Source: Escherichia coli (GTDB lineage: Bacteria; Pseudomonadota; Gammaproteobacteria; Enterobacterales; Enterobacteriaceae). From it: a stretch of 64,000 nt of DNA. Each line of letters begins with the position of its first letter. Positions within the stretch are counted from its first letter, which is position 1. The notes beneath the pieces were generated by a model. That model had not been told where the DNA came from, ran no database searches, and saw only the letters and a list, made by a program, of their open reading frames with translations. The translations under genes were made by a program, and so were the position numbers. The DNA is taken from NCBI RefSeq assembly GCF_003019035.1, contig NZ_CP027447.1. One strand, written 5' to 3'. This document shows positions 416 through 41,103 of this stretch, one piece after another.

Positions 416-848
416 AATTCTCCAAAATTTATATTTAAGTAGCTGAATAAAGAAAGTTAACAATCAAGTCATTCTGTTATTGCTTATAAAACAAGAATCA
501 TTCTTGATGGGATATTGCCCTGAGAATATAGTTTCCGGGGTTATTACATTTCACGAAGAACGATAATATCTTTAAATTACAAGGACACCTAATCACAACA
601 AGTTTATTGCAGCACTTGTTGTAGAGAGTATTTGCAAAGACATTTTATGTCGCTAAATAACATGACAATTTCATTATGCATGTTATTTATAAACCGTGAC
701 TAAACAGAATATTATTGCGAACAAGGGAAGTGTCAGGAAAGGTCAAGAGCGACCAATGGCTTATATGGCTATAAATCATTAGCTATAGTTAATGTTTGCC
801 TGGTGTAACTAACACGGAATTGCTCTAAACAGATAAGTGCAGGGTTTA

Positions 849-38584: not shown

Positions 38585-39772
38585 ATGAACTTATCCCTAC
38601 GACGCTCTACCAGCGCCCTTCTTGCCTCGTCGTTGTTATTAACCATCGGACGCGGCGCTACGCTGCCGTTTATGACCATTTACTTGAGTCGCCAGTACAG
38701 CCTGAGTGTCGATCTAATCGGTTATGCGATGACAATTGCGCTCACTATTGGCGTCGTTTTTAGCCTCGGTTTTGGTATCCTGGCGGATAAGTTCGACAAG
38801 AAACGCTATATGTTACTGGCAATTACCGCCTTCGCTAGCGGTTTTATTGCCATTCCTTTAGTGAATAACGTGACGCTGGTGGTGCTCTTTTTTGCCCTTA
38901 TTAACTGCGCCTACTCCGTTTTTGCTACCGTGCTGAAAGCCTGGTTTGCCGACAATCTTTCCTCCACCAGCAAAACGAAAATCTTCTCAATCAACTACAC
39001 CATGCTCAACATTGGCTGGACCATCGGTCCGCCGCTCGGCACGCTGTTGGTGATGCAGAGCATCAATCTGCCCTTTTGGCTGGCAGCTATCTGTTCCGCG
39101 TTTCCCATGCTTTTCATTCAAATTTGGGTAAAGCGCAGCGAGAAAATCATCGCCACGGAAACAGGCAGTGCCTGGTCGCCGAAAGTTTTATTACAAGATA
39201 AAGCACTGTTGTGGTTTACCTGCTCTGGTTTTCTGGCTTCCTTTGTTAGCGGCGCATTTGCTTCATGCATTTCACAATATGTGATGGTGATTGCTGATGG
39301 GGATTTTGCCGAAAAGGTGGTCGCGGTTGTTCTTCCGGTGAATGCCGCCATGGTAGTTACGTTGCAATATTCCGTGGGCCGCCGCCTTAACCCGGCTAAC
39401 ATCCGCGCGCTGATGACAGCAGGCACCCTCTGTTTCGTCATCGGTCTGGTTGGTTTTATTTTTTCCGGCAACAGCCTGCTAATGTGGGGTATGTCAGCTG
39501 CGGTATTTACTGTCGGTGAAATCATTTATGCGCCGGGCGAGTATATGTTGATTGACCATATTGCGCCGCCAGGAATGAAAGCCAGCTATTTTTCCGCCCA
39601 GTCTTTAGGCTGGCTTGGTGCTGCGATTAACCCATTAGTGAGTGGCATAGTACTTACCAGTCTGCCGCCTTTCTCGCTGTTTATCATCTTAGCGTTGGTG
39701 ATCGTTGCTGCGTGGGTGCTGATGTTAAAAGGAATTCGTGCAAGACCGTGGGGGCAGCCCGCGCTTTGTTGA
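38585..39772 (+). CDS. ydeE: MFS transporter YdeE
   Basis: 12-TM major facilitator, 395 aa. Confidence 0.9.
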   Translation: MNLSLRRSTSALLASSLLLTIGRGATLPFMTIYLSRQYSLSVDLIGYAMTIALTIGVVFSLGFGILADKFDKKRYMLLAITAFASGFIAIPLVNNVTLVVLFFALINCAYSVFATVLKAWFADNLSSTSKTKIFSINYTMLNIGWTIGPPLGTLLVMQSINLPFWLAAICSAFPMLFIQIWVKRSEKIIATETGSAWSPKVLLQDKALLWFTCSGFLASFVSGAFASCISQYVMVIADGDFAEKVVAVVLPVNAAMVVTLQYSVGRRLNPANIRALMTAGTLCFVIGLVGFIFSGNSLLMWGMSAAVFTVGEIIYAPGEYMLIDHIAPPGMKASYFSAQSLGWLGAAINPLVSGIVLTSLPPFSLFIILALVIVAAWVLMLKGIRARPWGQPALC

Positions 39773-39898
39773 TTTAAGTCGAACACAATAAAAATTTAAT
39801 TCAGCCTTCGTTTAGGTTACCTCTGCTAATATCTTTCTCATTGAGATGAAAATTAAGGTAAGCGAGGAAACACACCACACCATAAACGGAGGCAAATA

Positions 39899-39994
39899 AT
39901 GCTGGGTAATATGAATGTTTTTATGGCCGTACTGGGAATAATTTTATTTTCTGGGTTTCTGGCCGCGTATTTCAGCCACAAATGGGATGACTAA
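39899..39994 (+). CDS. mgtS: Small membrane protein MgtS (YneM), 31 aa
   Basis: Read by hand below the track cutoff: MLGNMNVFMAVLGIILFSGFLAAYFSHKWDD with stop at 39992-39994; Shine-Dalgarno GGAGG upstream. Confidence 0.85.
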   Translation: MLGNMNVFMAVLGIILFSGFLAAYFSHKWDD

Positions 39995-40021
39995 TGAACG
40001 GAGATAATCCCTCACCTAACC

Positions 40022-40060
40022 GGCCCCTTGTTACAGTTGTGTACAAGGGGCCTGATTTTT
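40022..40060 (+). terminator. Rho-independent terminator of mgtS
   Basis: 10-bp perfect stem GGCCCCTTGT / ACAAGGGGCC followed by TGATTTTTA. Confidence 0.7.
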
Positions 40061-40067
40061 ATGACGG

Positions 40068-40172
40068 CGAAAAAAAACCGCCAGTAAACCGGCGGTGAAT
40101 GCTTGCATGGATAGATTTGTGTTTTGCTTTTACGCTAACAGGCATTTTCCTGCACTGATAACGGATCGTTGA
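40068..40172 (-). ncRNA. mgrR: Putative PhoP-dependent sRNA MgrR (boundaries approximate)
   Basis: Minus-strand promoter with PhoP box at 40202-40218 and minus-strand intrinsic terminator at 40068-40096 (CCGCC stem plus 7-8 U); about 100 nt with no ORF; position between mgtS and dgcZ. Confidence 0.45.
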
Positions 40173-40201
40173 CACAGTAGCATCAGTTTTCTCAATGAAT
40201 G

Positions 40202-40218
40202 TTAAACGGAGCTTAAAC
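40202..40218 (-). promoter_or_regulatory. PhoP box (direct repeat GTTTAA-N5-GTTTAA) for the putative mgrR promoter
   Basis: Perfect hexamer direct repeat with 11-bp periodicity on the minus strand; overlaps the dgcZ stop codon. Confidence 0.45.
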
Positions 40219-41103
40219 TCGGTGAATCACGTTTTGTTCGTCAATAAACATACAGCGATTTCTTCCGGTTTGCTTACCCTCATACATTGCCCGGTCCGCT
40301 CTTCCAATGACCACATCCAGAGGCTCTTCAGGAAATGCGCGACTCACACCAGCAGTCACGGTAATGTTGATATGCCCTTCAGAATGTGTGATGGCATGGT
40401 TATCGACTAACTGGCAAATTCTGACACCTGCACGACATGCTTCTTCATCATTAGCCGCTTTGACAATAATGATAAATTCTTCGCCACCGTAGCGATAAAC
40501 CGTTTCGTAATCGCGCGTCCAACTGGCTAAGTAAGTTGCCAGGGTGCGTAATACTACATCGCCGATAAAATGCCCGTAGGTATCATTAACCAATTTAAAT
40601 CGGTCAATATCCAACAACATTAAATAAAGATTCAGAGGATCAGCGTTGCGTAACTGATGATCAAAGGATTCATCAAGAACCCGACGCCCCGGCAATCCCG
40701 TCAGAACATCCATATTGCTACGGATCGTCAGCAAATAAATTTTGTAATCGGTTAATGCCGCAGTAAAAGAAAGCAACCCTTCCTGAAAAGCGTCGAAATG
40801 CGCGTCCTGCCAGTGATTTTCAACAATAGCCAGCATTAATTCCCGACCACAGTTATGCATATGTTGATGGGCAGAATCCATTAGCCGAACGTAAGGTAAT
40901 TCATCGTTATCGAGTGGCCCCAGATGATCAATCCACCGACCAAACTGGCACAGTCCATAAGAATGGTTATCCGTTATTTCTGGCTTACTGGCATCTCTCG
41001 CGACCACGCTGTGAAACATACTTACCAGCCACTGGTAGTGGGCATCGATAGCCTTATTGAGATTTAACAAGATGGCATCAATTTCCGTTGTCTTCTTGAT
41101 CAT
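40213..41103 (-). CDS. dgcZ: Zinc-regulated diguanylate cyclase DgcZ (YdeH), 296 aa from MIKKTTE
   Basis: CZB zinc-binding domain plus GGDEF domain with GGEEF motif (…YRYGGEEFII…). Confidence 0.9.
   Translation of the reverse strand: MIKKTTEIDAILLNLNKAIDAHYQWLVSMFHSVVARDASKPEITDNHSYGLCQFGRWIDHLGPLDNDELPYVRLMDSAHQHMHNCGRELMLAIVENHWQDAHFDAFQEGLLSFTAALTDYKIYLLTIRSNMDVLTGLPGRRVLDESFDHQLRNADPLNLYLMLLDIDRFKLVNDTYGHFIGDVVLRTLATYLASWTRDYETVYRYGGEEFIIIVKAANDEEACRAGVRICQLVDNHAITHSEGHINITVTAGVSRAFPEEPLDVVIGRADRAMYEGKQTGRNRCMFIDEQNVIHRV

What the first reader, a model, noticed from the sequence alone, without database searches (positions are those of the whole stretch)
39840..40220. PhoP-type sRNA locus between mgtS and dgcZ, with the PhoP box overlapping the dgcZ stop codon
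A perfect GTTTAA-N5-GTTTAA direct repeat (minus strand, 40202-40218) lies ~100 nt upstream of a strong minus-strand intrinsic terminator (40068-40096) with no ORF between, matching the known position of MgrR. Divergent mgtS (31 aa, missed by the ORF track) has its own perfect-stem terminator at 40022-40060. The box sits on the last codons of dgcZ, so PhoP binding and dgcZ transcription termination share sequence.
Basis: partly seen in the sequence, partly recalled or inferred. Interest (0 to 1): 0.35.

Follow-up and report, generated by a model that had tools for sequence, protein, structure and literature searches.

The report
Known E. coli sRNA gene mgrR
This is the well-studied E. coli mgtS–mgtT–mgrR–dgcZ locus: the 98-nt magnesium-responsive small RNA MgrR with its documented PhoP binding site. 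The site does overlap the last codon and stop codon of dgcZ, but the locus is ordinary and already annotated.

Summary
The region is 100% identical to many E. coli chromosomes. It aligns without indels to K-12 ydeE–mgtS–mgtT–mgrR–dgcZ.

- **mgrR:** the annotated K-12 gene (b4698, 98 nt) maps to window 40070–40167 (−), with 97 of 98 bases identical. Rfam STnc560, the Salmonella name, hits at 281.9 bits against a gathering score of 55.
- **PhoP box:** GTTTAA-N5-GTTTAA lies at 40218–40202 (−). An exact copy is expected 0.01 times per window. It falls at −52 to −36 from the annotated 5′ end, which is the position attributed to Moon & Gottesman 2009.
- **Overlap with dgcZ:** the upstream half-site is the last dgcZ codon (GTT) plus the stop codon (TAA).

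Corrections:
- mgtS and mgrR are convergent, not divergent.
- The overlap is with dgcZ's translation stop, not a transcription terminator. No terminator lies before mgrR's own.
- The box has two mismatches to the canonical (T/G)GTTTA consensus.
- mgtT (34 aa) runs through the "mgtS terminator" and overlaps the MgrR 3′ end antisense.

The overlap itself is lineage-specific. It is absent in Citrobacter, shifted in E. albertii and extended in one divergent Escherichia genome. In Salmonella the flanking gene is listed as ydeI. Interest is low.

The parts
40202..40219 (-). PhoP box of the mgrR promoter. AGTTTA-AGCTC-CGTTTA occupies 40219-40203, which is -52..-36.
   Evidence: The position matches the documented -52 to -36 site (PMC8313858 citing Moon & Gottesman 2009). 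The proximal GTTTA is invariant in 19 Escherichia/Citrobacter loci.
40174..40179 (-). Probable -10 hexamer TACTGT (-12..-7). There is no -35 hexamer; the PhoP box lies just upstream of that position.
   Evidence: Read from the sequence, placed relative to the annotated 5' end. The TAnnnT pattern is kept in the alignment. No complete sigma-70 consensus promoter was found, as expected for an activator-dependent promoter. Inferred, not mapped here.
40070..40167 (-). mgrR, a 98-nt Hfq-dependent sRNA (K-12 b4698). The window copy differs from K-12 at one base, +4 (C in place of T).
   Evidence: K-12 annotation, indel-free alignment and the Rfam STnc560 hit. The numbering fits G41 and U55-A68 as described in PMC6239178.
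40133..40163 (-). MgrR 5' stem-loop (nt 5-35).
   Evidence: Minimum-free-energy fold. The same helix appears in the Rfam consensus structure.
40100..40131 (-). A-rich (ARN)-type Hfq-binding stretch (nt 37-52) and the target-pairing region U55-A68.
   Evidence: Predicted almost entirely single-stranded, with only a weak 3-pair helix. Function as described in PMC6239178 and bioRxiv 2021.06.30.450655. Invariant across 19 loci, although 18 of these bases were the search pattern.
40070..40096 (-). Intrinsic terminator of mgrR. It is an 8-bp stem with a 4-nt loop; the run of eight U's includes the last stem base. It is also the only candidate intrinsic terminator downstream of dgcZ.
   Evidence: Stem changes in Citrobacter keep the pairing.
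40213..41103 (-). dgcZ (ydeH), a diguanylate cyclase. Its last codon GTT (40218-40216) and stop codon TAA (40215-40213) form the distal PhoP half-site.
39899..39994 (+). mgtS (yneM), a 31-aa PhoQP-induced membrane protein, convergent with mgrR.
   Evidence: PhoQP dependence and convergent orientation are documented.
39994..40098 (+). mgtT, a 34-aa ORF whose start overlaps the mgtS stop (TAATG). It runs through the mgtS hairpin and overlaps the last 29 nt of mgrR antisense.
   Evidence: Weaver et al. preprint 10.1101/511675; PMC11429745.
40022..40060 (+). Terminator-like hairpin (40022-40052) plus T5 (40056-40060) downstream of mgtS and inside mgtT.
   Evidence: Fold. The hairpin is conserved in Escherichia and in nearly all Citrobacter loci, where it is preceded by a run of about 6-8 A's on the mgrR strand, i.e. 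T's after it on the mgtS strand.
39988..40201 (-). Extent of the Rfam RF01407 (STnc560) model match. It is wider than the RNA: it also covers 34 nt of promoter, the mgtS hairpin in antisense and the end of the mgtS coding sequence.
   Evidence: One search compared.

Best explanation
The region is the E. coli mgrR gene and its promoter.

Under low Mg2+/Ca2+, PhoQ phosphorylates PhoP. PhoP~P binds the direct repeat AGTTTA-N5-CGTTTA at -52..-36, which lies just upstream of a missing -35 hexamer. It recruits sigma-70 RNA polymerase to a weak -10 (TACTGT). Transcription starts at window 40167 and ends at the hairpin and U-run at 40096-40070, giving the 98-nt MgrR. MgrR binds Hfq through its A-rich ARN stretch and U-tail. 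It pairs through nt ~55-68 with mRNAs such as eptB, ygdQ and pitA.

mgtS-mgtT, also PhoQP-induced, is transcribed convergently from the other side.

In E. coli the dgcZ-mgrR spacer is so short that the distal half-site is made of the last dgcZ codon plus its stop codon.

What is shown here: the identity, the coordinates, the box, the terminator and the overlap. What is taken from the literature: PhoP dependence, Hfq binding and the targets. What is inferred: the -10 assignment, and that dgcZ transcripts run through mgrR to the mgrR terminator.
For: -: 100% identical to many E. coli chromosomes; the locus is present in 5416 of 5426 complete genomes.
- K-12 annotates ncRNA mgrR (98 nt) between mgtT and dgcZ. 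The alignment has no indels, and 97 of 98 bases are identical.
- Rfam STnc560 matches at 281.9 bits (gathering score 55, E = 2e-65).
- an exact box is expected 0.01 times per window.
- the published PhoP site is at -52..-36, which equals 40219-40203 here. A protein-occupancy (IPOD-HR) peak has been reported at that motif.
- terminator and fold (z-score -2.9).
- PhoQP dependence of mgrR and mgtS, the convergent arrangement, the 98-nt length, the ARN motif, and the numbering of G41 and U55-A68 all fit this sequence.
- STnc560 is a ~90-nt RNA enriched 29-fold with Hfq in Salmonella. It shares an intergenic region with the yneM mRNA.
- the 32-mer spanning the box and stop codon is exact in 5223 of 5426 complete E. 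coli genomes.
- the proximal half-site, the TAnnnT -10 and the RNA core are conserved in Escherichia and Citrobacter.
Against: Nothing substantive.
- No expression data exist for this particular strain.
- The -10 matches consensus at only 3 of 6 positions.
- The box has two mismatches to the canonical consensus at the K positions.
- The primary paper (Moon & Gottesman 2009) was not held. The -52..-36 site is therefore cited second-hand, and there it is described as found by 'consensus motif identification', not by footprinting.
Confidence: 0.97

Rival explanations
1. MgrR is mainly a 3'-UTR product of dgcZ. dgcZ transcripts read through to the mgrR terminator and are processed to the ~98-nt RNA, and the GTTTAA repeat merely reflects the dgcZ C-terminus.
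For: No intrinsic terminator lies between the dgcZ stop (40213) and the mgrR terminator, so read-through is plausible. dgcZ-mgrR synteny is kept in Citrobacter.
Against: - MgrR is reported as PhoQ/PhoP-dependent, whereas nothing found here links dgcZ to PhoP.
- In Salmonella the same ~90-nt RNA is listed with ydeI, not a dgcZ homologue, as the flanking gene.
- In Citrobacter the conserved proximal half-site and -10 lie in non-coding DNA about 27 nt past the dgcZ stop. The promoter is therefore conserved independently of the coding sequence.
Confidence: 0.02
2. The functional RNA is the longer ~214-nt STnc560 unit defined by Rfam (39988-40201), not the 98-nt species.
For: The Rfam model aligns end to end over 214 nt with conserved hairpins.
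Against: - The model's first 34 nt lie upstream of the annotated 5' end.
- The strong hairpin-plus-U-run terminator sits in the middle of the model.
- The second hairpin has no U-run on the minus strand and is the mgtS terminator on the other strand.
- The observed sizes are ~90 nt in Salmonella and 98 nt in E. coli.
- Conservation of the extra sequence is explained by mgtS/mgtT and their hairpin.
Confidence: 0.01

Closest known systems
MgrR sRNA of E. coli K-12 (b4698; Moon & Gottesman 2009), equivalent to Salmonella STnc560 (Rfam RF01407)
   Same: It occupies the same locus between mgtS/mgtT and dgcZ. 97 of 98 bases are identical. The terminator, ARN stretch and pairing region are the same, and the PhoP box sits at -52..-36.
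   Different: There is one SNP at +4 (C in place of T). Nothing else differs. This is an allele of the known gene.
PhoP-activated promoters with a PhoP box in place of the -35 hexamer (for example mgtA, mgrB and phoPQ P1; consensus (T/G)GTTTA-N5-(T/G)GTTTA, quoted in PMC7667037)
   Same: It has a direct repeat with 11-bp periodicity and both GTTTA cores intact. The box is immediately upstream of the -35 position, and there is no -35 hexamer.
   Different: Both hexamers start with a non-consensus base (A and C). The distal hexamer doubles as the Val-stop codons of the upstream gene dgcZ. That overlap is present in 96% of complete E. coli genomes but absent at the canonical position in E. albertii and in Citrobacter. 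In Salmonella the flanking gene is listed as ydeI.

Membership tests
MgrR / STnc560 (Rfam RF01407) | Covariance-model score above the family's gathering threshold | tested here: met
   281.9 bits against 55, E = 2.3e-65, full model 1-214.
MgrR / STnc560 (Rfam RF01407) | Orthologous position: between mgtS (yneM) and dgcZ (ydeH), convergent with mgtS | tested here: met
   Gene order is ydeE-mgtS-mgtT-mgrR-dgcZ-ydeI. Convergent orientation is stated.
MgrR / STnc560 (Rfam RF01407) | Sequence identity to the annotated 98-nt K-12 RNA, including the ARN stretch and pairing region U55-A68 | tested here: met
   97 of 98 bases identical with no indels. The numbering of G41 and U55-A68 fits.
MgrR / STnc560 (Rfam RF01407) | Rho-independent terminator with a long U-tail (Hfq proximal-face site) | tested here: met
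   An 8-bp G+C-rich stem followed by a run of eight U's that includes the last stem base.
MgrR / STnc560 (Rfam RF01407) | PhoQ/PhoP-dependent expression, Hfq binding, and repression of eptB, ygdQ and pitA | not testable with these tools
   Known from the literature for K-12 and Salmonella only.
PhoP box promoter | Direct repeat (T/G)GTTTA-N5-(T/G)GTTTA with at most 2 mismatches | tested here: met
   AGTTTAAGCTCCGTTTA has 2 mismatches. The consensus and the two-mismatch limit are quoted in PMC7667037.
PhoP box promoter | Box at or next to the -35 region of a promoter that lacks its own -35 hexamer | tested here: met
   The box lies at -52..-36 from the annotated 5' end. No full sigma-70 consensus was found.
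PhoP box promoter | Physical PhoP binding | not testable with these tools
   Only an IPOD-HR occupancy peak over the motif is reported (PMC8313858). No footprint was found in the papers held.

The most novel reading that the evidence does not exclude
The mgrR PhoP box is built on the dgcZ stop codon, and dgcZ has no terminator of its own. The two genes may therefore be mechanistically coupled in E. coli.

dgcZ transcripts may carry a complete MgrR in their 3' UTR. That would give a PhoP-independent source of MgrR or an Hfq handle on dgcZ mRNA. Conversely, PhoP bound at the box, or firing of the mgrR promoter, may impede or truncate dgcZ transcription. This would link Mg2+ sensing to c-di-GMP synthesis.

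Nothing found here tests this, and no paper held mentions it.
Probability: 0.1. Interest if true: 0.35.

Novelty: already known. Interest (0 to 1): 0.07.

Why it matters
It matters little beyond confirming that the scan can recover a real sRNA gene and its regulator site from raw sequence. MgrR, its PhoP dependence, mgtS and mgtT are all annotated and published.

The one slightly fresh detail is that the distal PhoP half-site is the Val-stop codon pair of dgcZ and that dgcZ lacks its own terminator. This is a consequence of a compact spacer. It is lineage-specific, and it would matter only if read-through or roadblock coupling between dgcZ and mgrR were shown experimentally.

Tried and rejected
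- **Primary papers not held.** I tried to read Moon & Gottesman 2009, Wang et al. 2017, Yin et al. 2019 and Moon et al. 2013. The -52..-36 site is therefore cited through PMC8313858.
- **No literature on dgcZ read-through.** Searches for dgcZ/ydeH together with MgrR, 'mgrR promoter' and STnc560 plus MgrR found nothing on read-through or on the overlap. PMC8545128 lists dgcZ only as a flanking gene.
- **Limited taxon sample.** The single genome-contig scan used an exact 18-mer from the MgrR core. It recovered only Escherichia, Citrobacter and one MAG labelled Raoultella, plus about 19 chance hits in unrelated taxa. Salmonella, Klebsiella and Enterobacter were not sampled. The Salmonella context comes from Sittka et al. 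2008.
- **No good PhoP box for mgtS.** None with three or fewer mismatches lies upstream of mgtS. The best is AATTCA-GCCTT-CGTTTA at 39798-39814, matching 8 of 12 positions.
- **Stop-loss allele.** I tested whether the dgcZ stop-loss allele seen in L012 occurs in complete E. coli genomes. It does not.
- **Rejected readings.** A chance repeat is excluded by an expectation of 0.01 together with the documented site. A 214-nt RNA and a purely 3'-UTR origin are covered under the rival explanations.

Full report
**What is in the sequence.** The window between 39600 and 41110 carries these features, in order:
- the 3′ end of an MFS transporter gene on the plus strand, ending at 39772;
- a 31-codon plus-strand ORF at 39899–39994;
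- a 34-codon plus-strand ORF at 39994–40098, whose ATG overlaps the previous stop (TAATG);
- a non-coding stretch;
- a minus-strand GGDEF-protein gene whose stop codon TAA is at 40215–40213.

On the minus strand the repeat GTTTAAGCTCCGTTTAA occupies 40218–40202. It is the only exact match to GTTTAA-N5-GTTTAA in the 64-kb window, where shuffles give 0.01. With one mismatch allowed the expectation rises to 0.47.

A terminator lies 105 nt downstream on the same strand. Its stem is at 40096–40077 (8 pairs, 6 G-C, 4-nt loop). The run of eight T's is at 40077–40070, its first T being the last stem base.

The plus-strand hairpin at 40022–40052 is followed by T5 at 40056–40060. It folds as a 10-bp perfect stem, a one-base bulge, three more pairs and a tetraloop.

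**Identity.** A 481-nt query covering the finding is 100% identical to many E. coli chromosomes and is found in 5416 of 5426 complete genomes. RefSeq annotates ydeE, mgtS, mgtT, dgcZ and ydeI there.

In K-12 MG1655 the same stretch also carries ncRNA mgrR (b4698, 98 nt, minus strand) between mgtT and dgcZ. The window aligns to K-12 with no indels. mgrR therefore maps to window 40070–40167 (−), with a single difference at +4.

Rfam RF01407 (STnc560) matches at 39988–40201 (−) with 281.9 bits against a gathering score of 55. STnc560 was described as a ~90-nt RNA, enriched 29-fold with Hfq. It lies in the Salmonella ydeI/ydeE intergenic region, beside the yneM (mgtS) mRNA (PMC2515195).

The numbering from 40167 fits the published description of the 98-nt MgrR: G41 lies inside the A-rich (ARN)5-like stretch, and the pairing region is U55–A68 (PMC6239178; fold).

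**The promoter.** With +1 at 40167, the hexamer TACTGT is at −12..−7. The extended box AGTTTA-AGCTC-CGTTTA (40219–40203) is at −52..−36. This is exactly the position given for the PhoP site of mgrR in PMC8313858, which cites Moon & Gottesman 2009. That paper also reports a condition-dependent protein-occupancy peak over the motif.

Against the canonical consensus (T/G)GTTTA-N5-(T/G)GTTTA (quoted in PMC7667037) the box has two mismatches. Both are at the first base of a hexamer. The two GTTTA cores are intact.

No complete sigma-70 consensus promoter is present. This fits an activator-dependent promoter in which the box stands in for the −35 element.

In an alignment of 19 loci (four Escherichia, fourteen Citrobacter and one MAG labelled Raoultella), several features are conserved. 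The loci were found through an 18-mer inside the RNA and not through the promoter. The conserved features are the proximal GTTTA, a CATTG motif, the TAnnnT −10 and the RNA core. The distal half-site is looser.

**The overlap with dgcZ.** The 32-mer spanning the box and stop codon is exact in 5223 of 5426 complete E. coli genomes.

The arrangement is not ancient:
- **Citrobacter sp. On2M:** the dgcZ homologue ends with TGA about 27 nt upstream of the box.
- **E. albertii:** the GTT-TAA of dgcZ lies 22 nt upstream of the proximal half-site, with a degenerate GTTTTG between them.
- **One divergent Escherichia genome (L012):** TAA has become TTA, and DgcZ runs seven codons further (…RVLAPFNIH*), through the whole box. 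No complete E. coli genome has that allele.
- **Salmonella:** the flanking gene is listed as ydeI, not dgcZ.

The overlap is therefore a by-product of a compact spacer in E. coli and its closest relatives. It is not a conserved design.

1. mgtS (+) and mgrR (−) are convergent. [quoted passage not shown]
2. What shares sequence with the box is the translation stop of dgcZ. No intrinsic terminator lies between the dgcZ stop and the mgrR terminator. dgcZ transcripts most likely run through the mgrR promoter and gene and stop at 40070, unless Rho acts. This is an inference; I found no paper on it.
3. The space between mgtS and mgrR is not empty. mgtT (34 aa) was found by ribosome profiling and confirmed by tagging. 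It is co-regulated with mgtS by PhoQP. It runs through the 'mgtS terminator' hairpin and ends at 40098, inside the MgrR terminator on the opposite strand. Full-length mgtT mRNA must therefore read through that hairpin and be antisense to the last 29 nt of MgrR.
4. The Rfam match (214 nt) is wider than the RNA. It includes promoter sequence, the mgtS hairpin in antisense and the end of the mgtS coding sequence.

**Mechanism.** Low Mg2+ activates PhoQ. PhoP~P binds the box and activates transcription of the 98-nt MgrR. MgrR binds Hfq through its ARN stretch and U-tail, and represses eptB, ygdQ, pitA and other mRNAs by pairing through nt ~55–68.

Shown here are the identity, the coordinates and the conservation. 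Regulation and targets come from the literature. The −10 assignment and dgcZ read-through are inferred.

**Verdict.** The finding is a correct rediscovery of a known, annotated sRNA gene and its documented PhoP site. Novelty: already known. The only reading with any novelty is functional coupling of dgcZ and mgrR through the shared sequence and shared terminator. It is untested and of modest interest.

Noticed in passing
window 690-706 (-): This is a zero-mismatch canonical PhoP box, TGTTTAGTCACGGTTTA. My own arithmetic gives about 0.03-0.05 expected per window. It lies in the intergenic region about 275 nt upstream of a fimA-like fimbrial subunit gene (chaperone-usher operon next to hipBA) and downstream of an HTH pseudogene. 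CATAAT follows 11 nt after the box. I know of no report that PhoP controls this fimbrial operon.
   Followed up: partly
window 39994-40098 (+): mgtT overlaps the mgtS stop, runs through the mgtS terminator hairpin and ends inside the MgrR terminator on the other strand. Among Escherichia species its conserved residues coincide with the two hairpin stems, and its variable residues with the hairpin loop (VTVVY, VTTAY, VAVMH). No mgtT-like ORF of 30 aa or more follows mgtS in Citrobacter L027. The protein's conservation may therefore be driven by RNA structure.
   Followed up: partly
window 39798-39832 (+): The mgtS promoter region has no PhoP box with three or fewer mismatches. The best candidate is AATTCA-GCCTT-CGTTTA (8 of 12 positions). 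Only its proximal half-site is good, and it lies 12 nt upstream of a TAATAT -10. That is one helical turn closer than in mgrR, yet mgtS is PhoQP-dependent.
   Followed up: partly
L012 10030-10060 (Escherichia 'coli' SCPM-O-B-8794): The dgcZ stop codon TAA is mutated to TTA. DgcZ is extended by seven residues, so the entire mgrR PhoP box is coding sequence. The allele is absent from 5426 complete E. coli genomes.
   Followed up: yes
L006 8740-8790 (E. albertii): Three GTTT(A/T) elements occur at 12- and 10-nt spacing: GTTTAA-CAGCTA-GTTTTG-CGCT-GTTTAA. Relative to E. coli, about 11 nt has been inserted, which moves the dgcZ stop off the canonical distal half-site.
   Followed up: partly
window 39988-40201 (-): The boundaries of the Rfam RF01407 model extend well beyond the mapped 98-nt RNA on both sides. 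An Rfam hit here should not be read as transcript coordinates.
   Followed up: yes
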